A stretch of DNA of 27,122 bases from a virus. The stretch lies in the IMG/VR virus record IMGVR_UViG_3300029858_000001, positions 1 through 27,122 of that record; one strand, written 5' to 3'. Made by a program: the position numbers and the translations under genes. Under the pieces are notes generated by a model that made no database searches, was not told the origin of the DNA, and saw nothing but the letters and a program-made list of their open reading frames with translations. This document shows, piece after piece, positions 5,471-25,158 of the stretch. The first letter of the stretch is position 1. Every line of letters starts with the position of its first letter.

Positions 5471-5521
5471 TAATAAAATATTATAAAATATTTATAGAAA
5501 AAATAAAGGGAGTAAATAATC

Positions 5522-7799: not shown

Positions 7800-8627
7800 A
7801 TGAAAGTTTGTTTAAGACATAACCAAGAAGAACAATATCTCCAAAAGGCAGAATAGGTTGAGGTTAAATGGGCATATATTGACCAACTTCTTGATTTAGT
7901 AGAAAAATATCCTGATAAAGATTTTATCATAGATGCTCCAAAAGGCAAGCCAATGGATTGGAAAAGTATAGCCACTTGTAAGGCCGGCCTGCATTAGGGC
8001 CATACCTTCTATATTCGGCTGCATGATCTAAATCCTTTGCTTACATTACGCTGGATGGAGAAATATGATCTTAAATTTTTTTATAGTGAACCGGCAAAAA
8101 CCTATTATGAGCTGTATAATTTAAAAAAATTAGGTGTATCATATGCTTATATTGATGCTCCTATTTTCTTTGATTTAAATGAAGTAAAAAAAATAGATAT
8201 TCCATTAAGACTTGTACCAAATCGCGCATATATTCAAGGGCATATTCCACAAATGAGTGGCTTACATGGCACTTGGGTTCGTCCAGAAAAACTTGATATT
8301 TATGAACCATATTTTGATGTTTGTGAATTTGAAAATGATGGACCTACACAAGAACGAGCTTTCTACCGCATTTATTTTGAAGATAAGTCTTGGCCAAATG
8401 ACATGAATTCATTAATTTTTGGACTTAATACTAATATTGATGATAGATTAGTATATGAAGGTCTTGATGAAATGCGTCTTAATTGTAAACAAGTATGTGA
8501 AACGCCTAAGCCCTATTGCCAAATGTGTGATAAAGTATTGTACTTTGAACGTGCAGGACGCCAATGGGCTAAGGAGTATATTGCCGAACATGAGGGAGAA
8601 GACCAAGAACAGATAAGCCCTAATTGA
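7800..8627 (+). CDS. hypothetical protein (275 aa) with two in-frame TAG sense codons (7854, 7995)
   Basis: ATG 7800 has the RBS AAAAGGAG. Its frame is continuous with track ORF 8037-8627. The only interruptions are TAG. It ends at TGA. Confidence 0.6.
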
Positions 8628-8681
8628 TTATTTAATAAAATTATTATATAATATTTATATAATAATAGAAGGGAATAAGAA

Positions 8682-9680
8682 ATGGGTAAAAAAGTTTTAG
8701 TTCCTGAATTTACTGAAAATTGTAGGGGGCTTTTGGAAGGACTATTCAAGATTAGTGAAGTAGGTCTTTTGAAAGCTCTCGGTGATTTTGTATCTAATAA
8801 ATATTCTAATGTAGAAATTACAGAAGATTATGTATATGCTGAAGGCAATATTCCTGTTATGCTTATTGCACATGTAGATACTGTATTTAGACAACCAATT
8901 CGTCAATTTACTTATAATGAGAAAAGAGCTGTTTATAAAGGCAAGGAAGGTCTTGGAGCAGACGATAGAGCAGGTGTTTTTGCGATTATTCAGATTTTGC
9001 GTAAAAAGTATAGACCTTATGTTCTTTTTACAACAGATGAAGAAATGGGTGGCTACGGGGCACATATATTTGTTGAAGCACATCCAACAGCTCCAAATAT
9101 TAAGTATATGATTGAACTTGATAGAGCTGGTGAAAGAGATTGCGTCTTCTATGAGTGTGAGAATTTTACATTCATGGATTATGTTGAAAGTTTTGGTTTT
9201 AAGCAAGCGATTGGGTCATTTACAGATATTAGTATTATTATGCCTGAATGGGAAGTCGCTGGAGTAAATTTATCAGTTGGTTATCATCATGAACATACTC
9301 AGAATGAAGATTTACATATTAGAACATTGTATAATACAATTAGTAAAGTATGTAAAATGCTTGATGATATTGAAAATGCAGATAAATATAAGTTTATCCC
9401 CAGCAAGGAATATCTCCAATGGATTACATTGACTAATAAATATCATATGCCTTATGATTTTGATGATGATAAACTTCTTAATTGTAGTTTTTGTAATCAG
9501 TTGTATTATGAGTGGGAAGATTTTCCTCTTGATATTGATGGAGTAAAAGTTCATGTGTGCCCTGAATGTTTAGCACTTGATCCTAATATTCATCAATGTG
9601 AAAAGTGTTATAATTTATTTTATTCAAATAATATGAAGGAAAGAGTATGTGATAAATGTCGAGTCCCTGTTGTAATTTAA
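8682..9680 (+). CDS. M42/M20-like metallopeptidase-fold protein with a C-terminal CxxC zinc-ribbon array
   Basis: Motifs HVDTV, GADDRAG and TTDEEMGG match the HxD / GxDD(R/K)xG / EE motifs of M42/M20 peptidases. The C-terminus has CSFC, CPEC, CEKC and CDKC. Confidence 0.55.
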   Translation: MGKKVLVPEFTENCRGLLEGLFKISEVGLLKALGDFVSNKYSNVEITEDYVYAEGNIPVMLIAHVDTVFRQPIRQFTYNEKRAVYKGKEGLGADDRAGVFAIIQILRKKYRPYVLFTTDEEMGGYGAHIFVEAHPTAPNIKYMIELDRAGERDCVFYECENFTFMDYVESFGFKQAIGSFTDISIIMPEWEVAGVNLSVGYHHEHTQNEDLHIRTLYNTISKVCKMLDDIENADKYKFIPSKEYLQWITLTNKYHMPYDFDDDKLLNCSFCNQLYYEWEDFPLDIDGVKVHVCPECLALDPNIHQCEKCYNLFYSNNMKERVCDKCRVPVVI

Positions 9681-9760
9681 ATGAAATTAAAGAACAAGTA
9701 AAGAAGGTTATTGCCTATTCATAGGGGCTGGATATTAACCTTTTAAATATTGATAAATTA

Positions 9761-11083
9761 ATGAATGATTGGGAAGAGAATAAATGCAAATTTTATAGTA
9801 GGCTTCCTGGTAATAAATTAATTTATCAAAGCCATACGCCTATTACAATGTCTATTTCAGAAGATGATAAAAAAGCTGAATTAGATTGTTTTATTGACAA
9901 TATTCGTTGGCATTATGGTTTATTTGAATTAAAAGATTTTGTTGAAAATAATAGAAAAGATTTTTATAATAATATTTTAAGCGAAGATTATTCAATGAAT
10001 AATGGGACTGTCATTCCAAAAGGAATGAAAATAATTAAAGCATTTAAATATTTTGTAGAAGATAAGGAAATTCTTACTGAAATACAAGATAAAGCTAGTA
10101 TGCTTATTCAAAATACAAAAATTAGTGGATATTTTTGTATGTCAGTTCATCCATTGGATTATCTTAGTTTAAGTGAAAATACACATAATTGGCGGTCATG
10201 CCATGCTCTTGATGGAGAGTATCGTGCTGGTAATTTATCTTATATGGCAGATAATTGTACAATTATATGTTATATTAAGAGTGAACATGACGCGGTTTTA
10301 CCTAGATTCCCAGAGGATATACCATGGGCAGATAAGAAATGGCGTATGCTTCTTCATGTATCTGATGATAATACTATGGTTATTTCAGGTCGGCATTATC
10401 CTTATGAAAGTAAAGGATTACAAGATTTCGCTCTTGAATTATATGAAACATTTTTCGGGCTAGGATACCGTTTTACTGATTGGTGTCATGAAAAATATAA
10501 TACATTTACAATAAATGATAAAATTTTTTCTAATGAGAGTCGTTTATTACCTACTGGATACGTAATGACCCCAGATATTAAGGTTATTGTTGATCCGAAA
10601 AATCCTTTGCACTATAATGATCCTCTCCATTCTACTGTGTATGACTATTGGTTTAGTATTGCTTATAGTGAACCTTATTGGCATGAAGAAGGTATTCCAC
10701 AAGATAAATTAATTCTTCCAAGAACTCGTACTACTACTAAAGTTAACATAGGACATGGGGTAAAATGCTGTATTTGCGGCAAAAATGATTGTGTTTTAAC
10801 AGATACAATGCTTTGTATTGATTGTGAGCTTGAATATGGTACAGAAGAAACAGAAGATTTTACTTTCTGTAGAGAGTGTGGTAGACGTATTTATATTCCT
10901 GAAGCAATATCATTAGATGATGATGATGGTTATGTATGCCGTAGCTGCGGAGATAATTATTAGATATGTGATAATTGTAATATGTATTATGATAAAAAAG
11001 ATTTAATTTATGATGAAGAAAACAATGCTTATTATTGTGAAGCTTGTTTTGATGAAATTTTATTTGATAGGGAGAATGAATAA
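9761..11083 (+). CDS. paralog of 5522-7165 (HPLDY domain plus zinc-ribbon array), read through TAG at 10961
   Basis: After TAG the frame continues in clearly coding, CxxC-containing sequence to TAA 11081. This overlaps the next start (TAATG). Confidence 0.65.
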
Positions 11084-12060: not shown

Positions 12061-12194
12061 AAGACTTTAACAGCAAAAAATGGACAGTAAATCCGTCGCA
12101 AATGCTACGTAGGTTCGAATCCTACCCTCCCCACCATTATATGGCGGAGGTAGGGAAGTGGTTAAACCCAACGGAACCAAACCAAATAAGTCTT
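12061..12194 (+). tRNA. circularly permuted type-II tRNA-like unit. The 3' half (12092-12136: TCCGT anticodon-stem strand, long variable arm, T-arm GTAGG-TTCGAAT-CCTAC, acceptor CCTCCCC-A-CCA) precedes the 5' half (12144-12175: acceptor GCGGAGG, TA, D-arm GGG-AAGTGGTTAAA-CCC, anticodon-stem ACGGA). The unit is flanked by the inverted repeat AAGACTT / AAGTCTT.
   Basis: Acceptor complementarity is 6/7. The anticodon-stem halves are perfectly complementary 5-mers (ACGGA/TCCGT). The T-arm is canonical. A 7-bp long-range terminal helix is present. No anticodon could be assigned. Confidence 0.4.
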
Positions 12195-12453: not shown

Positions 12454-12602
12454 GCTCTCGTAGCTCAATTGGTCAGAGCCGGCGACTTATCCAAGATTAG
12501 TTTAAATGGTAAAATAGTCTATGCGCAAGAAAGATGTGAGTTCAAGCCTAACATCTTGGGCCAAATCGCCAGATGTGGGTTCAAATCCCGACGGGAGCAC
12601 CA
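12454..12602 (+). tRNA. tRNA (Ile-like, anticodon loop CTTAT|AA, UAU) interrupted by a 73-nt tRNA-like insertion (12491-12563) after anticodon position 36
   Basis: Outer acceptor GCTCTCG / CGGGAGC-A-CCA. D-arm GCTC-AATTGGTCA-GAGC. Anticodon-stem GGCGA / TCGCC is split by the insert. The insert has termini CCAAGAT / ATCTTGG, a T-arm GTGAG-TTCAAGC-CTAAC, and its own G-CCA. Confidence 0.5.
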
Positions 12603-12868: not shown

Positions 12869-12871
12869 ATT

Positions 12872-13795
12872 ATGCCTAAACTTATTGATATTCCGATAGA
12901 AACTAAATTTAATAGATGGACTGTTCTTAAAAGAGATACTACTAAGAAACGAGGATACTGGTTTTGTTAGTGCGATTGTGGTAATCCTGAAATTAGAAGT
13001 ATAAATATTACTACATTAAAAAGTGGACGTTCAAAATCTTGTGGTAAATGTGGATAGTATGATGAAATTGGTAAGACTTATGGACGTTTAAAAGTTCTTG
13101 AAGTTGATTTAGATTATAAAGAGTAGTATAAGACTAAAGTTTCAGGTTATTATTATAAATGTTAGTGCTCTTGTGAAAATAAAACAATTATTACCGTAAG
13201 TGGCATTAATTTAAGAAATGGACATACAAAATCTTGCGGATGCTTAATTAAAGAAGGGTGTAATAAAAAAGATCTAACAGGTCAAGTTTTTGGGTTTTTA
13301 AAAGTTTTATATCCGACTGAATAGAGGGTATCTTCTTATATCATTTGGCATTGTCGTTGTTTAAATTGTAATAATGAATGTGATGTTTCATCCAGAAATT
13401 TAATTGAAGGAAGAACTAGCTCTTGTGGATGTTTGCGTTCAGTTGGAGAAGCAAATATAAAAAAAATATTGCAAAATAATTAGATAGATTTTTCTTAGGA
13501 AAAAAATTTTTCAGATTTAATTAATCCAGATACTACATATTTATTACGTTATGATTTTTATTTACCTCAATTTAATAGGCTTATAGAATTTGATGGAGAG
13601 TAGCATTTTAAATATAAAAAAAATAATTCTACTTGGAACAATGAAGAAAATTATTTAAAAACAGTGCATAATGATAAAATAAAAAATGATTATGCTAAAT
13701 AGCACAATATTCCATTAGTTCGTATTCCTTACTGGGAACGTGATAATATTACTCTTGATATGTTATTAGGAGATTAGTATTTAATTAACAAATAA
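12872..13795 (+). CDS. free-standing homing-endonuclease-like protein: three tandem Cys4 zinc-finger repeats (W-C-x-C-x-C-G-N ... S-C-G-C) plus a C-terminal Vsr/PD-(D/E)XK-like nuclease domain (YRYDFYLPQFNRLIEFDGEQHF). Contains 10 in-frame TAG sense codons.
   Basis: Hand translation gives a single frame from ATG 12872 to TAA 13793. The only interruptions are TAG. The repeats WFC(TAG)CDCGNPE, YKC(TAG)CSCENK and WHCRCLNCNNE are each followed by SCG(K)C. Confidence 0.65.
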
Positions 13796-14195: not shown

Positions 14196-14271
14196 GCCGG
14201 TGTAGCCGAATGGCATAGGCGAATGATTTAGGATCATTAATCTGAAGGTTCGAGTCCTTTCACCGGTACCA
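14196..14271 (+). tRNA. tRNA with anticodon UAG (decodes CUN Leu codons) but a type-I (short variable arm) body
   Basis: Acceptor GCCGGTG / CACCGGT-A-CCA. Anticodon-stem AATGA / TCATT. Loop TTTAGGA. T-arm GAAGG-TTCGAGT-CCTTT. Confidence 0.65.
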
Positions 14272-14355: not shown

Positions 14356-14426
14356 TACTTCTTGGTGTAATGGAAGCATGCTGCCTGAAAGAGGCGGAGG
14401 TATTGGTTCAATTCCAATAGAAGGAT
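14356..14426 (+). tRNA. tRNA-like element lacking a canonical anticodon loop (loop TGAAAGA or GAAAG pentaloop)
   Basis: Acceptor TACTTCT / AGAAGGA with one mismatch. T-arm ATTGG-TTCAATT-CCAAT is perfect. Anticodon-stem CTGCC / GGCGG. No CCA. Confidence 0.35.
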
Positions 14427-14795
14427 TAATTAAAGCTGGGAAATAATAGTCGCCCATAACTAATTATTTAATATAGGACTATTATTAAAGGTTATTTAAG
14501 TTAAAGAAATGCGGTTGAAGTTATTACTAACTTGATTATAAAATAACATGACCGCAAGACGAGTGTTTGAAGCTTGTCTATAAACAAATTCTTCATATGT
14601 TGTCTTTTTATACTTACTCTTTGGTTGTTTCTTGACATATAAGTAAAAACGGAAAGGGAGTTAAAGGTTCAGCTAAAAAACCGGTTTGTTTTTTGATAAG
14701 GTTTTAAAAATTATTAGGTGACAAAATCTTATTTGAGTGACGCTGCTCAGGAGGGTCCGGAACCTCTGAAATGCGTATAATAAAGGAGATAAAAT

Positions 14796-14972
14796 ATGAA
14801 ATTTCAATTAAGGTATTTTCATTGTCCTATTTGTCATTTACAAATGACGGCTCCTAAAACCAAGAATTTCAAAAAATCTTCTTATAAAGGGAAAAAACAT
14901 CGAAAAATAATGTATTGCATTAATTGTAAAAAAGAACAAAATTTTATTTTAGATGAAATTTCTATTGTATAA
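14796..14972 (+). CDS. small zinc-ribbon protein (58 aa; CPIC...CINC)
   Basis: ATG with RBS AAAGGAG. It is not in the ORF track because it is under 60 aa. Hand-translated MKFQLRYFHCPICHLQM...CINCKKEQNFILDEISIV. Confidence 0.45.
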   Translation: MKFQLRYFHCPICHLQMTAPKTKNFKKSSYKGKKHRKIMYCINCKKEQNFILDEISIV

Positions 14973-15011
14973 ATGATGGTGTGGCCTAGCGGTAAGGCAC
15001 CTGCCTTTGAT

Positions 15012-15745
15012 TTAGTAGCATAAGTAATGCAATTTCGAACTGGGTCAAAGAAGGTTAAGAGAATTAATTTAGGAATTAAATAACAGTGAAAGGAGCTGTT
15101 ATTTATGGCTAAAACTAATTCAGAAAATGTATGTAATTTTGTTAGAAATAGAAAAGCTAATTTAATTTCTTTATTTCATAGTAAATGTTGTATTTGTGGT
15201 TTCGATAAATTTCAAGAAGCTTTAGAATTTCATCATATAAATCCTAAAGAAAAAGAAATTTCTCTATCAGCTAATACAATGGTGTCATTAGAACGTCAAA
15301 TCAATGAGGCTAAAAAATGTATTTTAGTTTGTTCTAATTGCCATAAGGGAATACATGCTGGATATTATCAAATTCCTTCTAATTATTAGGATTTATTTGA
15401 TAATGAATAGGCAGAATATTTATTATAGATGAATAAAGAAATTAAAGAAGGTAAAAAACATTATTGCAAACAATGTGGTAAATTATTAAATTCTAATACA
15501 ACTTATTGTTTAGATTGTAGTCATATTATTTAGCGTAAAACAGAAAGACCAGATAGAGAAACTTTAAAGTAGTTAATTCGTAATTAGTCTTTCGTAGCAA
15601 TAGGTAAATAGTATGGAGTAAGTGATAATGCTATTCGCAAATGGTGTGTTTCTATGAATTTACCTACTAAAAAAACAGAAATTAACCTTTATAATGACGT
15701 CTAGTGGGAATAGATATAAGTTCAAATCTTGTTTAAATCACCATA
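15012..15745 (+). mobile_element. intervening sequence (intron-like) inside the tRNA-Gln anticodon loop, carrying a homing endonuclease gene
   Basis: It lies between the exon halves above. It contains ORF 15105-15719. A hairpin AACAG-TGAAAGGAGC-CTGTT presents the SD. Confidence 0.6.
15105..15719 (+). CDS. HNH homing endonuclease (N-terminal HNH: CCICGF...HHINPKE...CSNCH; C-terminal HTH: LIRN(Q)SFVAIGK(Q)YGVSDNAIRKWC) with 7 in-frame TAG sense codons
   Basis: The standard-code ORF is 15105-15389. With TAG read as sense the frame continues to TAA 15717. The frame was verified codon by codon. Confidence 0.7.
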
Positions 15746-15784
15746 AGCAGGGTACCGAGGGTTCAAATCCCTCCACCATCACCA

Positions 15785-16315
15785 GGTCAAGTTTGAGAAA
15801 TTTCATAAAGCATCGCTGACGTTAAATGGCACTTATATGAAAACGCGTAAGTAATATAAGATAGCAAAATTCTCGTAGTTCATCCTATTAGAGAATCTTA
15901 AAGAGTAATGGCAAGATCATATCGCGGGAGACCGTGCGTATGAGATACCAATAAAGGTAGCACATCTTGTGTTGAGCAAGATAAAAGATGGAAAGGATAC
16001 CTGCCATGCTTGGACGGTAAAAGAAGGCGTTGAATGTAATCGAAAAACATTCCGTTGGTTCTTAGGGGAGCGACGTAACAGTGAAACCCGAGGTTTGAGT
16101 CACCTTGTCCAAACGCTATGTATAGTCAAAGTCTAGGCAACAAGGTTTTAATTAGAGTTAATATTGTTTTAATTAAACTCATACTTGTGGAAATCAAGCA
16201 GGTCCACCTTACTGGGCCTACTGTAAAAGCCAGTTTGATATAGCCTCCATACCCAATGAGGATTTTTATAAAAGTCTATTTAATTTTTCGGGCGGTTTAA
16301 TTAGATAGATTAAAT
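15785..16315. ncRNA. about 530-nt non-coding, comparatively GC-richer, hairpin-rich region between tRNA-Gln and tRNA-Val. Candidate structured RNA of unknown class.
   Basis: No ORF in any frame even allowing TAG. TAA/TGA are dense in all frames. Many local helices are present (GTGGA...TCCAC, CCTC...GAGG). It contains a TATAGTC motif reminiscent of group I P7 but no matching GACTA partner. Confidence 0.3.
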
Positions 16316-16801: not shown

Positions 16802-16899
16802 TTAAGTGTGATATATTCCAAACACGTAGGGTGGTAAGCACACGGGTTTTCTAGAAGCCTTCCCTATGAATATGGGAGACTAGCCTAGTGGTTCAGGCA

Positions 16900-17373
16900 G
16901 CGGACTGTTTCTTCTGACTTACAATGTTGTAGAATTATGTTAAATTCAAAACAAATTGGTAATATCACAGAAATGGAATCAATGCTTGCTTTTTTAAAGT
17001 TAGGTTATAATGTTCTTACTCCTTATGGAGATTGTGAGCGTTATGACTTCGTAGCTGATGTGAATGGAAATTTTTATAAAATTCAATGTAAAACTTCTCA
17101 TGCTTTTGGTGAGAATGAAGGTATTGAATTTAGTTGCAGAAGTTCTCATCGAGCCGAAGGAAAATGTATTAACGAACGATATACAGCAGATGATGTAGAT
17201 TTTTTTGCTACAACATTTAATGGGAAATGTTATTTAGTTCCTTTTAATGAATGTGGTGGCAGTAAAAAATTAAGATTTGTTAATCCAAAAAATGGACAAA
17301 TTCAACGAGTATCATTTGCTGAAAATTATGAATTAGAGAAGGTGTTAATGACATTGTAACTGATGTAAGAAGC
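16900..17373 (+). mobile_element. intervening sequence in the tRNA-Asn anticodon loop carrying a PD-(D/E)XK homing endonuclease gene
   Basis: Bounded by the exon halves above. ORF 16937-17359 occupies nearly all of it. Confidence 0.55.
16937..17359 (+). CDS. PD-(D/E)XK homing endonuclease, I-Ssp6803I-like (known from a cyanobacterial tRNA-fMet intron)
   Basis: Motif ERYDFVADVNGNFYKIQCK fits D...(D/E)xK. The size is 140 aa. It lies inside a tRNA anticodon loop. It has no TAG codons. Confidence 0.55.
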   Translation: MLNSKQIGNITEMESMLAFLKLGYNVLTPYGDCERYDFVADVNGNFYKIQCKTSHAFGENEGIEFSCRSSHRAEGKCINERYTADDVDFFATTFNGKCYLVPFNECGGSKKLRFVNPKNGQIQRVSFAENYELEKVLMTL

Positions 17374-17519
17374 AATCCGCCAAGCAAGGTTCAATTCCTT
17401 GGTTTCCCGCCACCGCACTCGCGGAAAACATACAACTCAACTGGTGCATAGAACTGGATGGAGCGTTCTATTAGTCTGATGCCTGCATTAGATTAAGTTT
17501 TATAACCATCATACTTGGG

Positions 17520-17590
17520 GACATAGTTTATGGTAGGAAAACGTTGAATTTAATTCAAAGTCGAGGGTTCGAATCCCACTCCCGCAACCA
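17520..17590 (+). tRNA. tRNA-like 3' element (GAGGG-TTCGAAT-CCCAC ... TCCCGCA-A-CCA) with an unresolved 5' partner. Possibly another split or degenerate tRNA.
   Basis: Canonical T-loop and a CCA end. No complementary acceptor 5' strand was found within 150 nt. Confidence 0.25.
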
Positions 17591-18157: not shown

Positions 18158-18245
18158 GTAGGAGTGCCAGAGTGGTCGATTGGGTTAGTCTCCAAAACTA
18201 ATTGTAGCTACACATCCAGGGTTCGAATCCCTTGCTCCTATGCCA
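18158..18245 (+). tRNA. tRNA with anticodon CCA (Trp-decoding) but a type-II body (3-bp D-stem with 11-nt D-loop, 14-nt variable arm TTGTAGCTACACAT)
   Basis: Acceptor GTAGGAG / CTCCTAT-G-CCA. Anticodon-stem TTAGT / ACTAA is perfect. Loop CTCCAAA. Confidence 0.5.
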
Positions 18246-18643: not shown

Positions 18644-18680
18644 AAATAAATCCATCTTTAAAGATGGATTTATTTTTTTG
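18644..18680 (+). terminator. rho-independent terminator ending the tRNA array
   Basis: Perfect hairpin AAATCCATCTTTAAAGATGGATTT followed by TTTTTTT. Confidence 0.75.
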
Positions 18681-18783
18681 CTTTTCTTCAAAATTTATAG
18701 TATAATATAAATGGTTAAAAGAGATTAAATGTATTAAGAAATATTTTATTATTATTAGAAATATTTTAAGGAGGATTCTTAAT

Positions 18784-19155
18784 ATGGTTTATGAAATTAC
18801 TTGTACTGATCCTAATGGAGAGAAAAAAACTTTAATTGTTTAGGATACAGACAACATTAAAATAAGTATAGAATATCAAGAAAGTGGAAATCTTCTTACT
18901 TTCGCAAATGATTTTAATCAATAGGCTGAAAAAAGTTCTGATATGGATAATCTTTTTAATTTTCTATCAAAAAAAGATACAGATTTTAGTATCAGCGTTA
19001 ATGTAAATGAAAATAAATTTAGTTATGCTACTTTTAAGTCAATAACTAATATTAAATATACTATTAGTTTAAATCCAACAGAAAATAAAAGACCAGATAC
19101 TAAATTATTTACAGCTATGGTTCAAGCTGAATTTAAAAAAGGAGATGAAGTATAA
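18784..19155 (+). CDS. small protein (123 aa, 2 TAG sense codons), tandem paralog of the next gene
   Basis: RBS AAGGAGG. Frame is continuous with track ORF 18943-19155. Shared motif DFSISVNVNENKFSYATFKSITN. Confidence 0.55.
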
Positions 19156-19541
19156 TGTTGATTTATGATATATCTTTTATAGATAGCAATTCTGAAAAAC
19201 ATAGTATTCCATTCCCAATACCAAATACTAATATTGAAATTTCCTATGGTACAGATCAAAAACGTTATTTAACTTTAACTTATAAATATAATACTACAGA
19301 AGAAAGAGAAGAATACCTAAGCAAAATATAGCAATTTAATTTAAGTTCTAATTCTGATTTTACTATTTCTATTTTAGATGATGATAATTCAGTTTCTTCT
19401 TTTATTTTTACTACTTTTAAAAATTTAAGAGAAGAAGAAGTTCAAAATACTATAAATAAAGATTATATCTATCGAGCTATAGATGATAGTCCTAAATTTG
19501 AATTACATTTATTCTGTCAATTAGGTGAAAATAATGAGTAA
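19155..19541 (+). CDS. small protein (128 aa, 1 TAG), paralog of 18784-19155
   Basis: The start overlaps the previous stop (TAATG). Motif DFTISILDDDNSVSSFIFTTFKN. Confidence 0.5.
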
Positions 19542-20124
19542 AATTTTATGGGATGATTTAAAAACTTTATATACTGAATTAAATACTCAAAGATAGAAAT
19601 TTTAGTTAGATACTGTTAGTGTCCCATCCAATTAGAATAAACAAACTAAAACCAGTGATATATCTACTTTAAAAGATGCTATTCAATCTATGAGTTCTCA
19701 TGCTTAGATTGGGGACAATGCTTCTACTACCTCAGTAATTGTTCCTGATTAGTATAGCCAAATGCGTCAAACCCCAATTACTCAAATGCGAACAGTAATT
19801 AATCGTATTTCTTAGTTAGCATTTAACGCTGGTAATTTTAGTAATCATAATGGTACTAATTTCGGTGGATTCCATAGTAGCCATTTTGGTGGCTTCGATG
19901 GCTTTAATTTTAGTGGATTCCATAGCGGTAATTTTACTAATGTTAATAACAGCAATAATGCTAATGTGAATAATAGTAATAATGCCGGTTTTTATAATAG
20001 TAATAATACTGGTAATAATATTCCATGTTTTAATGGTAATTATAATTTTAACATTAGTAGCCATAGATGTACCAGTTTTAGCTGTCCTAGCTTCAGATGT
20101 TTTAACTGTAGATTTAATCCGTAA
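19534..20124 (+). CDS. Gln(TAG)-rich protein with a low-complexity N/G/F/H/S repeat region (GGFHSSHFGGFDGFNFSGFHSG) and a Cys-rich C-terminus (CFNGNYNFNISSHRCTSFSCPSFRCFNCRFNP). Candidate precursor or substrate of the downstream radical-SAM enzymes.
   Basis: Hand translation with 8 TAG read as sense. It ends at TAA 20122. It lies immediately upstream of rSAM gene 1. Confidence 0.5.
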
Positions 20125-20159
20125 AATAATAATAATAATAACTAAGAAAGGTTATATTA

Positions 20160-21638
20160 ATGGATAAAATTATAAATTGTTTAGATAAAATAAATTGGAA
20201 AACTGTTATAATAGTTTCTGGAGGATGTAATTTAAATTGTAAGTACTGTTTAGTTAATAAATCTAAATCAGGAACTAACTATCCTAATTTTTTAAAAGAT
20301 ACTAATGCTGCGATAGCTAATGGTTCTTACTTAGATACTTTTAAAAAAGCATTTTAGAAATATAATCAAAGTCCTCGCCAAGTTGAAATTATGGAATTAT
20401 GGGGCAATGAACCAACTTTAATGCTTAAAGATTTAAATAAAGTTTGGAAAGACTGGTTAGAAGTTTTTTCTGGATTAAAAGGAATGACTTTTTCAACAAA
20501 CGGAATTGATTGTACTGATGATATATTTAATTTTATTTTAGAAATAGATAAGTATATCGACCATGAAATAGAAATAAGTATTTAGTATTCTTATGATGGC
20601 TTTCAAGGTGAAATAAATGAAAGACAACATAACAAAGAGAAGAAAGATACAGAATAGGATAGCATAGTTATTAATAATTTAATTAATTTAATAACAAAAC
20701 TTAACAGTGTAAAATTACATAATGTTAAAATAGATTTTATTCTTCATGCTGTACTATCTATGTTTATTGTAGATAATTTTAATACAACTGAAGATATTAG
20801 TAAATTTGTTGAACAATATATGGATACACTATATAGAATTAATCAATCTATTATCAACCAAAGAATTATATTCCGTGGAGGAGTATTTTTACATGAAAAT
20901 GCTCATGATTGGACCAGCGATGATGGAATTAATTATTGTAGCTTTATGAGAAAGTTCCAAAATATTTTAAGTGCTAAGAAACATAATTTTAAAAATGAAG
21001 GCGTCCAATATAGACATATTTTTAAAGAAGTTTTTGGAACTTTAGAAGAGGATATAATTAGTTTATGTTATAAAACTAATTGTCGTTCAATTGATACATT
21101 AATAGATAATTTTATAACTAATAAAGATTTACCAATTAATAGTTATTGTAGTTCTTTTGATGGTGTTTTACGAATAGATTATCAAGGAAATCTTTTAGAC
21201 TGCCATGCTTCTTTATATGACCCTTACCTAGAAAAGGATAAATTAACTAATACAATTTTAGATCAGGGTCGATGGATGTGTAAAGAACATGGACGGTATC
21301 TTAATATTCTAAAAAATGATAAAGAAGAAATTGAAAAATTACTTGATTTTTATCTTACTGCTCGTGACCCAACGGTAACTTTATTTGAAACATAGCAAAT
21401 GATAAATAAAATATATTTATTAGCTTTATGTGGATAGGCTAATGAATCTTATCTATATGATTTTAATAAATTAAAACGTCATGCTTTTATACTGGCTAAA
21501 GCATATCAATGCTATAATATATTAAAATGCCGGAATGGCTCTATTTTTGTTAGAGGAAATGAAGAAATAAGATTTTTCTGTAATGGTATTTTAGATATAG
21601 CTGAAGAAAATATAAATAGAGAAATTGGAGATTTTTAA
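20160..21638 (+). CDS. radical SAM enzyme with a SPASM/twitch domain (CNLNCKYC is CxxxCxxC; GNEPTL is the GGEP-like motif; CSSFDGVLRIDYQGNLLDC is Cx12Gx4C). It includes 4-5 TAG sense codons. Track fragments 20160-20357, 20391-20585 and 20760-21395 are one frame.
   Basis: All fragments are in frame 0 and separated only by TAG (20355, 20583, 20655). After TAG 21393 the same frame continues through a Cys-rich tail (ALCGQ, YQCYNILKCRNG, FFCNG) to TAA 21636. The minimal end is 21395. Confidence 0.65.
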
Positions 21639-21640
21639 TA

Positions 21641-23065
21641 ATGACTTATAAAGAACAAGAAAGAGATTTATTAAAATTATATTTAGATACAGCTTTATTA
21701 CCATATCCCACTAATTCAAATTCTGATGGAGACTATTTTTTAAATGAAAATGGATTTGAATTAATAGTACGTCCTTAGTGTAATTAGCATTGTTCATATT
21801 GCTATATAGCTAATTATGGCAAAGAACTTTATCCAACAGTGTTAAATAAAAAGGATACTTTAAAAAATATTGATCTTGTTTTAGATTATGTTTATAATAT
21901 AAGAAAAAATTTCTGTTATAATATAGCTCTGTTTGCCGGAGATATGTTTAATGATGAAATTTTCTTTGATATTGTTGATCTGCTTGAAAAATATCTAAAT
22001 CCTATTTTAATAAAACATCCTGAATATTTTAATAAACAGGGTTTAATTCAATGTCCTTGTAATTTACGATGGGTATATGAAAAACCTCAATTAGTATCAA
22101 GATTTAGAAAAATATATTATCATTTTAAAAATGTTTATAATATATATATGAGTTTTTCTTGGAGTACTGATGGATTACCAGCAATAAAAAATAGAGAAAA
22201 AATTGATATAGATCAACATTATTTTGATACTATTTTTTAGTTTACTAAAGAATTTGGTTTCGGATACCATCCTATGATTAGTGCCGAAAATATTGATGTT
22301 TGGTGTGAAAATATTGATTGGTGGTATGACATGTATAAGAAATTTGATTTAGCTGCTCCTAATGGTTATTATCAACCTTATATGCTTGAAGTACGTAATG
22401 GTAATTGGACTCCAGAAACTATTGAATTACATAATAAATTTCTTGAACATTTTATGAAAAAAAGATTTGAATTATGTGATAGTGATAAAACTAAATTTGT
22501 ACATCATTTATTAATTGGGACTGATGAAGATGGAAATTTACCATTCCCTCAAGGATGTGATCCATTAGATTTAAAATCCAGTAGCTCAACAAGTAGTAAT
22601 TTTGATAAAATGAGCTGTGGTGCTTAGAGTATGATTCATTTTAATTGTACTAATCTATCTTTAGTATTTTGTCATAGAATGTCTTATCCTCTTTACACTG
22701 GTGGGTATTTTAAAACAGATGAAGAGAAAAATCATATTATTGATATAGATCCCTATAATGTAAGTGCATATATAACTATGAAAACGGCAAAAACAACTAC
22801 TTTCCCTTTGTGCGCAAAATGCAAATACTTTAGTCTTTGCAAGTTAGGATGTCTTGGGGCTTAGACTGAAGATAGTGGAGAACCTTATATGCCAATTAAA
22901 GCTGTTTGTGCTTTTAATAAAGTTAAATATGAAAAATTGACTGATTTATATTATCAATATGGTGTTTATGATATAGGAGTTAAAAAAGGTTGGCTCACAA
23001 AAGATAAATCTTGGTTAACATTTATCTACAATCAAGGAATAGAAAGAGGGTATATAAATGAATAA
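21641..23065 (+). CDS. second radical SAM / SPASM enzyme (P(Q)CN(Q)HCSYC is CxxxCxxC with two TAG inside the motif; C-terminal CAKCKYFSLCKLGC is CxxCx5Cx3C). Track fragments 21839, 22274 and 22631 are one frame with 5 TAG.
   Basis: Frame 2 is continuous from ATG 21641 (RBS GGAGAT) to TAA 23063. The interruptions at 21776, 21785, 22238, 22625 and 22862 are all TAG. Confidence 0.65.
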
Positions 23066-23423
23066 AAAAGTTAAATTTTTAATTGCCTTAAATTCTATTA
23101 AAGAAAACTTTGATATTAATAATATAAATGATTATCAAGAATTAATTGATATTTGCAGTCGAATAAATTATGCAAAAGAAAAGGATGAAGATATTCTTTC
23201 ATTCGTTAAAGAAATTATATAGTTAATTGCATTAAAATAGATAGACTCAAAAGAATGTGATTCTTGTTGGCAAGAATATATACCTGATATTCCAATTGAC
23301 AATCAACCTGAAAATGATGATTTTTATAGTCATAGTAATACTTTTTAGAATTTATTTAAATTGGATATATTCAATCCTTTAAATCCAGATTATAAGTATA
23401 CAAATATTTTAAAATTTAATTAA
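23058..23423 (+). CDS. small hypothetical protein (about 121 aa, 3 TAG)
   Basis: ATG overlaps the previous gene's end. Hand-translated in frame 0 to TAA 23421. Confidence 0.4.
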
Positions 23424-23438
23424 AAAGAGAAAAAAATA

Positions 23439-24296
23439 ATGATTTATTTTACTTTACAAAATTTTTATGAAAATCAAAAATTAAATAATATATTTTTCAT
23501 TGTGCAAGATAAATTTTCTGGCTCTTTTAAAGTTCCTGTTAAATTTATTTATACCGCCGGTTCTTTCCCCTATACCTATTGGAACGGCGGTATAAATAAC
23601 AACTTTGGTATTGGCGATAATACTTATGATACAATTATAGAATATTCTAATAATAACCTATTGCCTTTAAGAATTAATTGTAGTAATATTAATTTAAATC
23701 CTAATGATTTTGATGATACTATTATGAATGTAATTTTAAATTTATTAAATAATAGTAGCAATGCTATTGAATTATCAAATTTGGAATTATATGAATATCT
23801 ATATAAAAAGTATCCTAACTTTCATTATATTTTATCGAATAATTTTAACTTAATTAACTCACTAACTCCAGAATTAATTAATAAATTGAATGAAATTTGT
23901 GATTTTTATTTAATTCAAATTCCATTAAATAAAATTAAAGATTTAAATTTCTTAAAAGCAATACAAAATAAAAGGAACATTGAGTTACCTGTTGGAGATA
24001 TTTGTAATTGTACAAGTTTAGACGATTGTAATATTAAAGAACAAATAGCTCAATATAACTATTCAGATTCTTTTACTAAAATAAATTGTTCTAAATGTTC
24101 AGGACTTAATTATAGTTTATCTATAGAAGATATTCAGAATAATTATGTTCCTTTAGGATTTCATAATTTTATTTTACCAGATTATTGTAATTCAAAAAAT
24201 AATAATATAATTAAATTTTTTATTGATTTTTTTATTAAAGATTCTGACAAATTATTGATTTATGAATTTATAGAGGAGCAAATGTATTATGGTTAA
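23439..24296 (+). CDS. U32-family-like protein A (paralog of the next gene; Cys-rich, CNCTSLDDC, CSKCSG)
   Basis: Shares NSLTPE, PLGF(H/E) and YP(N/M)(F/Y)(H/K)Y motifs with 24289-25158. No TAG. Confidence 0.45.
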   Translation: MIYFTLQNFYENQKLNNIFFIVQDKFSGSFKVPVKFIYTAGSFPYTYWNGGINNNFGIGDNTYDTIIEYSNNNLLPLRINCSNINLNPNDFDDTIMNVILNLLNNSSNAIELSNLELYEYLYKKYPNFHYILSNNFNLINSLTPELINKLNEICDFYLIQIPLNKIKDLNFLKAIQNKRNIELPVGDICNCTSLDDCNIKEQIAQYNYSDSFTKINCSKCSGLNYSLSIEDIQNNYVPLGFHNFILPDYCNSKNNNIIKFFIDFFIKDSDKLLIYEFIEEQMYYG

Positions 24297-25158
24297 GTAT
24301 GCAATTCCAGGAATGTATGAATTAGCAAATTTAAATTTTAAACTCTTAGATTTAAAATCTGCTAATCCTGAATATTTTTACGATGACGTAGAAATTGAAA
24401 TTAGTTATGGTAATCCTCAATTTTGTATCTGGGATGGAGGAAGAGTATTTTCTTTTTATAAACAAGCTTCTATTGATATTATAAAAAATATAATTGATAC
24501 ATATAATAATAAATATCATATCCCTATTAGATATGTATTTACAAATAATCAATTAACTCCAAAAGAATATAAAAATAGATTTTGTAATTTATTAATGGAA
24601 GCAGGAAGTAACGGTCCTAATGAAGTAGTAGTCGCTGATGATGATTTTATGCTTTATCTTAAAGAACAATATCCTATGTATAAATATGTATCATCGACTA
24701 CTAAAGTTATTACTGATCCAGAAGAGGCAAAAAAAGAAATTGATAAAAAAGATTATAAACTTACCTGTTTACATTATGATTTAAATTTCAATTTTAAATT
24801 TTTGAATTCTTTAACACCAGAAGAGCGAGCAAAAACAGAGTTTTTAATTAATCCAATCTGTCCTGCTGGTTGTCAATTCAGAAAAGAACATTATAAACTG
24901 AACAGTCAAATGGTTTTAAATTATGGTAAATCTTACACTACTCCTTGGTGCGGAATTACTAAAAATAATTTCTATCCATCTGTTCGTAAAAATCATATGA
25001 GTTATGAACTAATTAAAGAAAAATATGCTCCTTTAGGTTTTGAGCATTATAAAATTGAAGGACGTACTTGGGAAGAGTTAGAGGCAGCTTTAACTTATTG
25101 CGAGTATATGATAAAACCAGAATATCAAAATTACGTACTACCTTATTTAATGGGCTGA
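24289..25158 (+). CDS. peptidase-U32-family protein B (RlhA/UbiU/UbiV/TrhP superfamily)
   Basis: The C-terminal motif GFEHYKIEGRT matches the conserved U32 KIEGR segment (compare E. coli YhbU HSLKIEGRTKS). Cys residues CPAGC and WCG may bind an Fe-S cluster. No TAG. Confidence 0.5.
   Translation: MVKYAIPGMYELANLNFKLLDLKSANPEYFYDDVEIEISYGNPQFCIWDGGRVFSFYKQASIDIIKNIIDTYNNKYHIPIRYVFTNNQLTPKEYKNRFCNLLMEAGSNGPNEVVVADDDFMLYLKEQYPMYKYVSSTTKVITDPEEAKKEIDKKDYKLTCLHYDLNFNFKFLNSLTPEERAKTEFLINPICPAGCQFRKEHYKLNSQMVLNYGKSYTTPWCGITKNNFYPSVRKNHMSYELIKEKYAPLGFEHYKIEGRTWEELEAALTYCEYMIKPEYQNYVLPYLMG

What the first reader, a model, noticed from the sequence alone, without database searches (positions are those of the whole stretch)
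14975..15784. tRNA-Gln(UUG) gene split in its anticodon loop by a roughly 735-nt element encoding a stop-codon-recoded HNH homing endonuclease
Exon halves 14975-15011 and 15746-15784 are perfectly complementary (acceptor 7/7, anticodon-stem 5/5) and rebuild a textbook tRNA-Gln. The insert encodes an HNH plus HTH endonuclease. Its full length exists only if 7 TAG codons are read as sense, so the mobile element is adapted to the phage's own genetic code. In bacteria and phages, only group I introns are known to interrupt tRNA anticodon loops. Here the non-ORF parts of the insert (about 93 nt 5', about 30 nt 3') look too short for a canonical group I core unless the ORF overlaps it. No clean U-G / omega-G junction is evident. 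If TAG suppressor supply is low, the endonuclease would be truncated after the HNH motif, which is a possible regulatory coupling.
Basis: partly seen in the sequence, partly recalled or inferred. Interest (0 to 1): 0.85.

Follow-up and report, generated by a model that had tools for sequence, protein, structure and literature searches.

The report
Homing-endonuclease gene inside tRNA-shaped tRNA intron
A gut-phage lysine tRNA gene is split in its anticodon by a 735-base insert that is folded like a tRNA (ending in CCA exactly at the junction) and carries a stop-codon-recoded HNH homing endonuclease gene; it is not a group I intron, so it points to an undescribed way of removing introns from bacterial-virus tRNAs.

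Summary
The split tRNA and the recoded HNH gene are real, but three details change. An intron-less allele in a sibling phage reads CUUUUAA, so the gene is tRNA-Lys(UUU), not tRNA-Gln(UUG). The insert is exactly 15009-15743, between U35 and U36. The ORF has 9 in-frame TAG codons, not 7.

The insert is not a group I intron. Rfam gives no hit, although it does detect a real tRNA group I intron in a control locus. The last base is A, not G. Sibling phages carry ORF-less inserts of only 58 or 44 nt at the same site.

All these inserts are tRNA mimics. The first 7 nt pair with a 3' strand, a T arm with a UUCAAAU-type loop follows, then one base and CCA as the last three bases. Across 11 distinct inserts, 96% of the 12 helix positions pair and 11 of 12 pairs show double changes.

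The HNH ORF is looped out of the mimic's anticodon arm. A second insert in the window (73 nt, in a tRNA with anticodon UAU) passes the Rfam tRNA threshold.

The only precedent I found is the 'enigmatic' tRNA introns of Lak megaphages. My best reading is a mobile tRNA-mimic intron. It would be cut out by tRNA end-processing enzymes (RNase P, then a cut after CCA) and the exons ligated. That mechanism is inferred, not shown.

The parts
14975..15008 (+). Outer tRNA-Lys(UUU) 5' exon (positions 1-35): acceptor GATGGTG, D arm GCCT-AGCGGTA-AGGC, anticodon stem CCTGC, loop C32 U33 U34 U35.
   Evidence: ARAGORN intron mode. Intron-less allele in L003 fixes the end at U35. The same exon carries a 58-nt insert in L047.
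15009..15743 (+). 735-nt insert (intron) between U35 and U36. It begins GAUUUAG and ends UUAAAUC-A-CCA.
   Evidence: It is precisely absent from L003: BLAST joins 15008 directly to 15744. It is identical in L075. ARAGORN, at 90% of its default threshold, calls the whole insert [1,735] a cloverleaf with its own 663-nt insertion.
15009..15036 (+). 5' part of the inner tRNA mimic: acceptor 5' strand 15009-15015; U8 A9 at 15016-15017; D-like hairpin GCAU-AAGUA-AUGC at 15018-15030; A at 15031; anticodon-stem 5' strand AUUUC at 15032-15036.
   Evidence: ARAGORN cloverleaf. The ORF-less 58-nt inserts have a comparable hairpin with the same AAGUA loop.
15039..15058 (+). 5' strand of a predicted extension of the inner anticodon arm. 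ACUGG (15039-43), GUC (15044-46) and AAGGUUAA (15051-58) pair with 15701-05, 15696-98 and 15682-89 respectively. This loops the ORF out.
   Evidence: RNAfold of an ORF-deleted construct plus direct reading. Prediction only; there is no comparative support.
15079..15103 (+). Hairpin AAUAACAG/CUGUUAUU that presents the Shine-Dalgarno AAGGAG (15090-15095) in its loop, directly before the ATG at 15105.
   Evidence: Read from the sequence. The spurious Corona_pk3 hit marks the same hairpin.
15105..15719 (+). HNH homing-endonuclease ORF, 204 codons plus TAA. It has 9 in-frame TAG codons, the first at codon 95. HNH motif at residues 28-86, then a CxxC...CxxC zinc ribbon and a conserved C-terminal DNA-binding-like segment.
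   Evidence: Pfam and PHROGs. Full-length alignment to homologues. TAG coordinates.
15700..15743 (+). 3' part of the inner tRNA mimic: loop UCUAGUG 15700-06; anticodon-stem 3' strand GGAAU 15707-11; variable AGAU 15712-15; T arm AUAAG-UUCAAAU-CUUGU 15716-32; acceptor 3' strand UUAAAUC 15733-39; discriminator A 15740; CCA 15741-43. It overlaps the last codons of the ORF.
   Evidence: ARAGORN. In a motif scan this tRNA-3'-end signature occurs only at tRNA 3' ends and the two intron ends: 11 hits against 0.055 expected. Covariation.
15744..15784 (+). Outer tRNA-Lys 3' exon: U36 A37 A38, anticodon stem GCAGG, variable GTACC, T arm GAGGG-TTCAAAT-CCCTC, acceptor CACCATC, A73, encoded CCA.

Best explanation
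The locus is a nested element. A phage tRNA-Lys(UUU) gene is interrupted between anticodon bases U35 and U36. The insert is a mobile tRNA-mimic intron, and an HNH homing-endonuclease gene written in the phage's TAG-sense late code is looped out of the mimic's anticodon arm.

Shown:
- The exact insertion point.
- The tRNA-like fold of the insert, with its mature-type 5' end and its N73-CCA 3' end at the two junctions.
- A family of ORF-less 44-, 58- and 73-nt versions in sibling phages, with covarying helices.
- Presence/absence polymorphism of the insert at this site.
- Relatives of the HNH gene lying free-standing next to tRNA-Lys genes.

Inferred mechanism:
1. The features the inserts conserve are the ones bacterial RNase P recognises: a 7-bp acceptor stacked on a 5-bp T stem, the T loop, U at -1 (G+1:C72 in the Lys inserts; C1:G72 in the 73-nt insert), and RCCA. 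RNase P would therefore cut at the 5' junction.
2. An RNase Z/BN-type activity that cleaves directly after an encoded CCA would cut at the 3' junction.
3. The two tRNA halves stay paired. Their 3'-OH and 5'-phosphate ends would be sealed by an RNA ligase, as T4 Rnl1 seals broken tRNA-Lys anticodon loops. This restores the CUUUUAA loop.
4. At the DNA level, the HNH enzyme would be made full length only once TAG is decoded, late in infection. It would cut intron-less tRNA-Lys alleles of co-infecting relatives, and repair would copy the insert in.
For: - Insertion point and identity.
- Independent assembly with the identical insert.
- Inner cloverleaf spanning exactly nt 1-735.
- The minihelix-CCA signature is found only at tRNA 3' ends and intron 3' ends (11 hits, 0.055 expected).
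- Same-site ORF-less inserts of 58 nt (L047 has the same exons; L038, L044, L058, L062, L066 and L074 have other exons) and 44 nt (L007, L008).
- Covariation: the first 7 and last 28 nt of 11 distinct inserts give 96.2% paired cells, 11 of 12 pairs with changes on both sides, and 0 of 500 shuffles as good. Slid registers give 28-50% pairing.
- The MFE fold of the 133-nt L047 precursor is the nested double cloverleaf, z = -3.0.
- The 73-nt insert scores 32.6 bits on Rfam tRNA (cut-off 29).
- The junction position in the outer tRNA differs between hosts (35/36 in Lys, 36/37 in the UAU tRNA), but it always coincides with the ends of the inner tRNA. This fits excision directed by the intron.
- The outer tRNAs look functional. 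The exons are intact and invariant while the inserts vary. AAA and AAT, the codons read by the two ORF-intron tRNAs, are the two commonest codons of the late genes.
- HNH relatives sit beside tRNA-Lys genes in L003, L047, L006, L007, L008 and L009.
- RNA end-healing-type genes lie nearby: RlaP nucleotidyltransferase, metallophosphoesterase and an AAA_33 kinase.
Against: - There is no RNA evidence of any kind. Cleavage by RNase P, the cut after CCA and exon ligation are all inferences.
- No RNA ligase or RNase Z gene was seen in the roughly 44 kb of this genome that I could inspect.
- In Bacillus-type hosts, an encoded CCA inhibits RNase Z.
- The kinase and phosphoesterase genes nearby would suit 5'-OH and cyclic-phosphate ends, not RNase P/Z products.
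- The Lak-phage introns (PMC6784885, Table S6) have the tRNA-like module at the 3' junction but a 26-30-nt hairpin leader at the 5' junction. RNase P alone cannot explain those.
- The PD-(D/E)XK insert in tRNA-Asn of this same window is not tRNA-like, so at least one other route would be needed.
- The insert's identity between the window and L075 says little about recent homing, because the flanks 14400-16200 are also about 99.5% identical.
- The covariation alignment is built from fixed end offsets. That is objective, but several rows are close relatives.
Confidence: 0.42

Rival explanations
1. Selfish insertion without splicing. The HNH gene and its tRNA-like ends have invaded a dispensable phage tRNA gene. 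RNase P and 3' processing merely release the endonuclease mRNA, capped and stabilised by tRNA-like ends, from the tRNA-array transcript. The tRNA-Lys is destroyed into halves. The ORF-less 44-73-nt forms are decayed remnants, or protective disruptions of the endonuclease target site.
For: - No ligase was found.
- Phage tRNA genes are often dispensable.
- The tRNA-Lys at this locus is swapped among at least three unrelated bodies plus an intron-less one in sibling phages. This suggests an arms race over a target site more than strict conservation.
- In L038 an HNH gene has simply replaced the anticodon region of another tRNA.
Against: - The exons show no decay in any of 11 insert-bearing copies, while the inserts themselves vary.
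- Three different tRNAs in one phage carry precise anticodon-loop inserts, and removing each leaves an exact 7-nt loop.
- The interrupted tRNAs read the most used late codons.
- The ORF-less inserts keep covarying helices, so they are under selection as RNA.
Confidence: 0.25
2. The insert is spliced, but by another protein pathway. An unidentified endonuclease (phage or host) would leave 2',3'-cyclic phosphate and 5'-OH ends. These would be healed by the phage kinase and phosphoesterase and then sealed, as in Trl1- or RtcB-type tRNA splicing. The tRNA-like fold would serve recognition, folding or another role.
For: - AAA_33 P-loop kinase, RlaP nucleotidyltransferase and metallophosphoesterase genes are clustered 8-12 kb upstream.
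- The PD-(D/E)XK insert in tRNA-Asn (16910-17373) and its relative in Enterococcus phage EFP01 lack tRNA-like ends and lack group I features.
- The Lak introns have a 5' leader.
- A single shared pathway for all of these would not depend on RNase P.
Against: - No candidate endonuclease or ligase was identified.
- There is no bulge-helix-bulge motif (read).
- The junctions track the ends of the inner tRNA rather than a fixed position in the outer tRNA.
Confidence: 0.2
3. Canonical or degenerate group I intron with the endonuclease ORF in a peripheral loop, which is the only described kind of tRNA intron in bacteria and phages.
For: - It sits in the anticodon loop, follows a U and carries a homing endonuclease.
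- A possible P1 (CCUUU with GAAGG at 15050-54) would give a U.G pair at the junction.
Against: - No RF00028 match even at E<=10, while the same tool finds a 195-nt tRNA group I intron in L020.
- The last base is A, and there is no G within 12 nt of the 3' junction.
- Only 96 + 24 nt are non-coding.
- The GAAGG is predicted to sit in an 8-bp long-range helix instead.
- Inserts of the same architecture at the same site are 44 and 58 nt long, far below any group I core.
Confidence: 0.03
4. Archaeal-type bulge-helix-bulge intron in an archaeal virus.
For: Archaeal BHB introns can carry homing endonucleases and are removed by proteins.
Against: - The junctions lie in a 4-nt/7-nt internal loop, not in two 3-nt bulges 4 bp apart.
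- The signals are bacterial: TTGAAA-N17-TATAAT promoters before the tRNA clusters, AGGAG ribosome-binding sites, and CCA encoded in every tRNA.
- The nearest relative of a neighbouring insert is in an Enterococcus phage.
Confidence: 0.02

Closest known systems
'Enigmatic' tRNA introns of Lak megaphages (Devoto et al. 2019, PMC6784885; Table S6)
   Same: - They occur in TAG-recoded gut phages and interrupt tRNA anticodon loops.
- They have no Rfam match.
- One was noted there as possibly encoding a tRNA.
- Reading their Table S6, all four (Tyr, Phe, Thr, Gly) end in an acceptor + T-arm module whose discriminator lies 0-1 nt from the 3' junction.
- The same intron is found identical across cohorts.
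   Different: - Lak introns have a 26-30-nt 5' leader with a hairpin before the tRNA-like part, and no CCA.
- None carries an ORF.
- Here the mimic's 5' end is the junction itself, the 3' end is CCA, and one member carries an HNH gene.
- No mechanism was proposed for the Lak introns.
Group I introns in bacterial tRNA anticodon loops with homing endonucleases (e.g. Synechocystis tRNA-fMet intron with I-Ssp6803I; cyanobacterial tRNA-Leu(UAA) intron)
   Same: - Anticodon-loop position after a U.
- An endonuclease ORF looped out of a structured RNA.
- Presence/absence polymorphism.
   Different: - No ribozyme core and no omega-G.
- ORF-less relatives of only 44-73 nt.
- A tRNA fold instead of P1-P9.
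Free-standing homing endonucleases in phage tRNA clusters, and 'collaborative homing' (T4 SegB; cyanophage F-CphI with the psbA intron). Cited from my own knowledge.
   Same: Relatives of this HNH lie free-standing next to tRNA-Lys genes. Some of those genes are intron-less (L003, L006, L009) and some carry an ORF-less insert (L047, L007, L008). This is the arrangement proposed as the precursor of composite mobile introns.
   Different: - Here the endonuclease gene has ended up inside the insert.
- The insert is not a self-splicing intron.
tRNA-like processing signals cut by RNase P and RNase Z (plant mitochondrial t-elements, MALAT1 mascRNA), and anticodon-loop repair by T4 Pnkp/Rnl1. Cited from my own knowledge.
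   Same: - A minihelix with RCCA is the minimal RNase P substrate.
- A break in the tRNA-Lys anticodon loop is the natural substrate of T4 Rnl1.
   Different: In no known system are these steps combined to splice an intron. Neither cleavage nor ligation has been shown here.

Membership tests
Group I intron | Match to the group I covariance model / conserved P3-P9 core | tested here: not met
   No RF00028 hit at gathering score or at E<=10. The positive control L020 scores 58.5 bits.
Group I intron | Terminal guanosine (omega-G) at the intron's 3' end | tested here: not met
   The intron ends ...AUCACCA. The junction is fixed by the intron-less allele.
Group I intron | U at -1 forming a U.G pair with an internal guide sequence (P1) | tested here: inconclusive
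   U35 precedes the junction and GAAGG (15050-54) could pair with it. However, that segment is predicted to sit in another helix, and there is no comparative support.
Group I intron | Enough non-coding RNA for a catalytic core (about 140 nt or more) | tested here: not met
   Only 96 + 24 nt are non-coding. Same-site relatives are 44 and 58 nt long.
HNH endonuclease (Pfam PF01844 / PF13391) | Profile match above the curated cut-off, with the His-Asn-His / CxxC motif | tested here: met
   HNH_2 scores 25.1 bits (cut-off 21) and HNH 23.5 bits (cut-off 21.4). The motifs CCICG...EFHH.NP...CSNCH are invariant in the alignment.
Homing endonuclease / mobile intron | Presence/absence of the element at one precise site among close relatives | tested here: met
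   The same exons occur with 0 nt (L003), 58 nt (L047) and 735 nt (window, L075) inserted between U35 and U36.
Homing endonuclease / mobile intron | The enzyme cleaves the intron-less allele | not testable with these tools
   Needs a cleavage assay on the L003-type tRNA-Lys DNA.
tRNA (outer gene) | Cloverleaf with a 7-nt anticodon loop once the insert is removed | tested here: met
   ARAGORN intron mode. The intron-less allele scores 77 bits on RF00005 and is called tRNA-Lys(ttt).
tRNA-like element (inner) | 7-bp acceptor + 5-bp T stem + TΨC-type loop + N73-CCA | tested here: met
   ARAGORN cloverleaf [1,735] at 90% of the default threshold. Motif scan. Covariation.
tRNA-like element (inner) | Functional anticodon arm (a decoding tRNA) | tested here: not met
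   The arm is interrupted by 663 nt here, degenerate in the 73-nt form, and absent in the 44- and 58-nt forms.
Lak-type 'enigmatic' phage tRNA intron | Non-group-I insert in the anticodon loop of a tRNA of a TAG-recoded phage, with a tRNA-like module abutting the 3' junction | tested here: met
Lak-type 'enigmatic' phage tRNA intron | 5' hairpin leader + A-rich linker before the tRNA-like module; discriminator without CCA | tested here: not met
   Here the acceptor 5' strand starts at the junction and CCA is encoded.
Archaeal/eukaryal BHB tRNA intron | Two 3-nt bulges separated by a 4-bp helix at the splice sites | tested here: not met
   The junctions face each other across a 4/7-nt internal loop (fold).
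Code 15 (TAG = Gln) phage | In-frame TAG in late genes at sense positions | tested here: met
   TAG-sense ORFs lie downstream of 12.8 kb and none in the early genes. TAG is 15.5 per thousand in late genes and 1.8 per thousand in early genes. TAG aligns with Q at 3 of 9 positions. That the amino acid is Gln is by analogy only.

The most novel reading that the evidence does not exclude
Phages of bacteria have a class of tRNA introns that are not ribozymes. They are tRNA mimics, excised by the cell's own tRNA end-processing enzymes (RNase P at the 5' junction, an RNase Z/BN-type cut after CCA or after the discriminator). The exons are then ligated. This would be a protein/RNP-dependent tRNA splicing pathway in the bacterial world. 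The mimic can also host a homing endonuclease gene and so behave as a mobile intron. The window's element, the 44/58/73-nt inserts and the Lak 'enigmatic' introns would all be members.
Probability: 0.35. Interest if true: 0.92.

Novelty: new variant of a known kind. Interest (0 to 1): 0.8.

Why it matters
Bacterial and phage tRNA introns are taught as group I ribozymes. Protein-dependent tRNA splicing is considered an archaeal and eukaryotic trait. If this element is spliced, it needs neither a ribozyme nor a BHB endonuclease.

The element's conserved features are the recognition features of RNase P. That turns the unexplained Lak-phage introns into a concrete hypothesis that can be tested in vitro.

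It also shows a homing endonuclease gene using a tRNA mimic, rather than a self-splicing intron or an intein, as its vehicle. Among sibling phages the intermediate stages are preserved: a free-standing endonuclease next to an intron-less gene, a free-standing endonuclease next to an ORF-less insert, and the endonuclease inside the insert.

There are practical consequences:
- Standard bacterial-mode tRNA finders miss these genes.
- Intron-aware finders mis-assign the anticodon. ARAGORN calls this tRNA Gln, and calls its 58-nt-insert relatives Met.
- tRNA inventories of recoded phages are therefore wrong.

Tried and rejected
- Group I: three Rfam scans were negative, with a positive control. A manual P1 candidate was rejected for lack of omega-G and lack of a core.
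- BHB motif: not present.
- Exact-match search for the insert's 3' end in IMG/VR found nothing. A 20-mer across the 3' junction hit only an unrelated coding region (L005).
- I tried to use the 100% identity of the insert between the window and L075 as evidence of recent homing. I dropped it because the flanks 14400-16200 are also about 99.5% identical.
- RNA ligase or RNase Z: none among the window ORFs, nor within about 7 kb upstream or 10 kb downstream. The rest of the ~187-kb genome could not be reached with the look-up rules.
- No close relative among GenBank phages.
- Literature searches found no description of tRNA-mimic introns beyond the Lak paper.
- RNAfold of an artificial ORF-deleted version of the window's precursor did not return the inner acceptor helix as the MFE. 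The natural 133-nt L047 precursor did.
- An alternative register of the inner loop (G-U-CUA-G-U) would be an amber-suppressor anticodon. I set it aside because it weakens the stem and the loop is interrupted by 663 nt.
Full report
**Observation**

The sequence at 14975-15784 holds two tRNA halves with perfect stems, separated by 735 nt.
- ARAGORN in its default mode misses the gene. It reports only a spurious 'tRNA-Leu' built on the 3' half.
- In intron mode it calls 14975-15784 with a 735-nt intron. It also calls two more interrupted tRNAs in the window: 12454-12602 (73 nt) and 16874-17412 (464 nt).

The insert carries an ORF at 15105-15719.
- The ORF matches Pfam HNH_2 and HNH above their cut-offs, and several PHROG HNH families.
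- Under the standard code it stops after 94 codons.
- With TAG read as sense it runs 204 codons to TAA at 15717. It then aligns end to end, at 52-54% identity, with standard-code homologues from other phage tRNA arrays. TAG falls on Q in a homologue at three positions.
- There are nine in-frame TAGs, not seven.
- TAG-sense reading is a property of the phage's late genes in general.

**Which tRNA, and where exactly**

Taken alone, the sequence allows five ways of closing a 7-nt loop: Met, Ile, Lys or Gln anticodons, with two of the five giving Gln.
- I searched IMG/VR for the predicted intron-less junction with a free anticodon. This found a sibling phage (L003, 188-kb contig) with the same gene, one D-loop difference and the same flanks, and with the loop CTTTTAA.
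- That is tRNA-Lys(UUU).
- It fixes the insert uniquely at 15009-15743, between U35 and U36.
But the acceptor stem, A73 and the intron-less allele all say Lys.
- A human-gut metagenome contig (L075) carries the identical 735-nt insert in the same gene, so the structure is not an assembly artefact.

**Not a group I intron**

- Rfam finds no group I or group II match in the insert at any threshold.
- The same search detects a 195-nt group I intron in a tRNA of an unrelated phage locus (L020, 58.5 bits).
- The insert ends in A. The nearest upstream G is 12 nt away.
- The only P1-like pairing uses a segment that is predicted to form another helix.

**What the insert is**

The first seven bases (GAUUUAG) pair with UUAAAUC near the 3' end. 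That strand is preceded by a T arm (AUAAG-UUCAAAU-CUUGU) and followed by A and CCA. The CCA is the last three bases before the 3' exon.
- Given the insert alone, ARAGORN (at 90% of its default threshold) calls the whole 735 nt a cloverleaf: acceptor, D-like hairpin, anticodon stem, T arm and CCA. A 663-nt insertion holding the ORF sits in the anticodon arm.
- A scan of the window for [5-bp stem, TTCRANY loop, 7 nt, N, CCA] gives 11 hits. All are on the + strand. They are tRNA 3' ends, one unannotated tRNA-like 3' end at 12109-12136, and the 3' ends of two inserts. Shuffled windows give 0.055.

**The same design recurs**

- The 73-nt insert in the neighbouring tRNA (loop CUUAU|...|AA, anticodon UAU) begins with CCAAGAU and ends with AUCUUGG-G-CCA. 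On its own it scores 32.6 bits on the Rfam tRNA model, above the cut-off of 29.
- L047 has the same tRNA-Lys exons with a 58-nt insert at the same U35|U36 site: GUGAGAU...AUUGG-UUCAAAU-CCAGU-AUCUCGC-A-CCA.
- Six other contigs have a different tRNA-Lys body with a variant of that 58-nt insert.
- L007 and L008 have a third tRNA-Lys body with a 44-nt acceptor + T-arm minihelix ending in ACCA or GCCA.

**Covariation**

I took the first 7 and last 28 nt of the 11 distinct inserts. These are fixed offsets, with no alignment freedom.
- The 12 predicted pairs are formed in 96.2% of cells.
- 11 of 12 pairs show changes on both sides.
- No shuffle out of 500 reaches this.
- Sliding the partner strand by 1-3 positions drops pairing to 28-50%.
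- Caveat: several rows are close relatives.

**Folds**

- The natural 133-nt L047 precursor folds, as its MFE, into the nested double cloverleaf (z = -3.0).
- In the window's element, the 5' UTR and the last codons of the ORF are predicted to extend the inner anticodon stem by about 16 bp. This loops the ORF out.
- That extension is a prediction only.

**Mobility and the endonuclease**

Sibling phages preserve several states at this one locus:
- Free-standing HNH gene immediately upstream of an intron-less tRNA-Lys (L003).
- The same, with a 58-nt insert (L047).
- No upstream HNH, but an HNH inside the insert (window, L075).
- Other tRNA-Lys bodies, with or without inserts (L038, L044, L046).

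Homologues with 52-54% protein identity lie free-standing next to tRNA-Lys genes in L006-L009. This is the pattern expected if endonucleases that target tRNA-Lys DNA first collaborate with, and then move into, an insert that protects the site.

I could not show recent transfer from sequence identity, because the local flanks are equally conserved.

**How it probably works**

The features the inserts conserve are the recognition set of bacterial RNase P (established knowledge, not tested here):
- Coaxial acceptor and T helices.
- The T loop.
- U at -1; G+1:C72 in the Lys inserts (C1:G72 in the 73-nt insert).
- R73-CCA.

The D and anticodon arms, which RNase P does not need, are dispensable or replaced in these inserts. 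The junction position in the outer tRNA varies (35/36 or 36/37), but it always coincides with the ends of the inner mimic.

My proposal has three steps:
1. RNase P cuts at the 5' junction.
2. An RNase Z/BN-type enzyme cuts after CCA. E. coli RNase BN and Thermotoga RNase Z do this; Bacillus RNase Z is inhibited by CCA.
3. An RNA ligase seals the resulting 3'-OH/5'-P nick in the anticodon loop.

Arguments that the outer tRNAs are used:
- The exons show no decay while the inserts vary.
- The tRNAs with ORF-bearing inserts read AAA and AAT, the two commonest late codons.

Arguments against, or missing:
- There are no RNA data.
- No ligase was found in the ~44 kb examined.
- The nearby kinase, phosphoesterase and RlaP genes would fit a cyclic-phosphate/5'-OH pathway better.

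I therefore give the full mechanism 0.42. I keep two serious rivals: no splicing (0.25) and splicing by another protein pathway (0.20).

**Comparison with what is known**

The only precedent I found is the Lak megaphage paper (PMC6784885). It reported 'enigmatic' introns in tRNAs of TAG-recoded phages and noted that one might encode a tRNA.
- Reading its Table S6, all four Lak introns end in an acceptor + T-arm module whose discriminator lies at, or 1 nt from, the 3' junction. I take them to be the same kind of element.
- They differ in having a 5' hairpin leader, no CCA and no ORF.
- I found no later paper that explains them.

The element here is thus a new variant of a known kind that has been reported but not understood. 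It is the first with a homing endonuclease gene and with both ends at the junctions.

Noticed in passing
window 12454-12602 (insert 12491-12563): A second interrupted tRNA (loop CUUAU|..|AA, anticodon UAU) carries a 73-nt insert that is itself a tRNA-like cloverleaf ending in G-CCA (Rfam tRNA 32.6 bits). L003 has the same insert in a completely different tRNA body. The acceptor pair G5-C changes to A5-U in L033 and L038, via G.U in L003.
   Followed up: partly
window 16874-17412 (insert 16910-17373; ORF 16937-17359): tRNA-Asn(GUU) is split between U36 and A37 by a 464-nt insert, almost filled by a PD-(D/E)XK endonuclease ORF (PF11645, the I-Ssp6803I family, 3e-28). An intron-less allele exists in L022, L044 and L075. 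The insert is neither tRNA-like nor group I: it ends in C, has only about 41 non-coding nt, and gives no Rfam hit. Its ends can pair with each other.
   Followed up: partly
L088 1470-2005 (Enterococcus phage EFP01, KY549443 105242-105777): A cultured Herelleviridae phage has a tRNA-Asn(GUU) with a 463-nt insert at the same U36|A37 site. The insert is 68% identical in DNA to the window's PD-(D/E)XK insert. In GenBank the region is annotated only as a hypothetical protein and no tRNA is annotated. This phage is an experimental handle on that insert type.
   Followed up: partly
L038 8009-8965: In a sibling phage the short-variable-arm tRNA with anticodon UAG (window 14196-14271) has lost its anticodon region to a ~900-nt HNH gene. 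An intact long-arm tRNA-Leu(UAG) (8567-8651) is embedded in frame in that gene's inter-domain linker, and its TAG anticodon is read through as sense.
   Followed up: partly
window ~12089-12185: A tRNA 3'-half-like element (TCCGT...GTAGG-TTCGAAT-CCTAC-CCTCCCC-A-CCA) is followed, after 6 nt, by a tRNA 5'-half-like element (GGCGGAGG-TA-GGGA...CCC-A-ACGGA). The halves are complementary to each other. This could be a circularly permuted tRNA or a two-piece tmRNA-like gene. The T stem covaries (UA to CG) in L003 and L038. There is no ARAGORN or Rfam call.
   Followed up: partly
window 12869-13795: A 307-aa homing-endonuclease-like ORF (PHROG HNH / intron-encoded nuclease families, 7e-35) has 10 in-frame TAGs. 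It is absent from L003, L033, L038 and L044, whose flanks join directly: a free-standing mobile gene in the tRNA array.
   Followed up: partly
window 15785-16315: About 530 nt between tRNA-Lys and tRNA-Val have no credible ORF and no Rfam hit, yet are up to 98.7% identical in sibling phages. L047 has a ~2.5-kb insertion here. Possibly a large structured RNA.
   Followed up: no
window 17517-17590 and 18158-18245: Two odd tRNAs. The first is a weak one (Rfam 32.6 bits) whose loop AUUUAAU would give anticodon UUA, i.e. ochre/amber-reading. The second is a long-variable-arm tRNA with anticodon CCA that scores 39 bits on the tRNA-Sec model. No tRNA with a CUA anticodon was found in the window, although TAG is read as sense.
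   Followed up: no
L046 (reverse strand) 3588-3760: A chimera. The 5' part of tRNA-Val(UAC) runs into the last 28 nt of the 58-nt insert and then into the 3' exon of tRNA-Lys. The insert's T arm and acceptor are near-identical to the 3' end of tRNA-Val, so the 58-nt insert probably derives from that tRNA, and the two recombine.
   Followed up: partly
window 2427-3233 and 3431-4210; L089 2674-3210: RlaP-type nucleotidyltransferase (PF10127), calcineurin-like phosphoesterase and, about 7 kb upstream of the window, an AAA_33 P-loop kinase. Together they look like an RNA end-healing set. No ligase was identified.
   Followed up: partly
window 5516-7165, 9656-11083 (and L089 5834-7552): Three paralogous large proteins share an S(I/V)HPLDY..(M/L)S(D/E)N..W(E/R)SC motif and several C-terminal CxxC zinc ribbons. 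They have no Pfam match (one hits PHROG 18912, function unknown).
   Followed up: no
window 20142-23065: Two adjacent radical-SAM-like proteins (CxxxCxxC motifs) with 5 and 6 in-frame TAGs lie in a ~6.5-kb block (18647-25149). The block is missing from several sibling phages (L044, L058, L074, L075).
   Followed up: no
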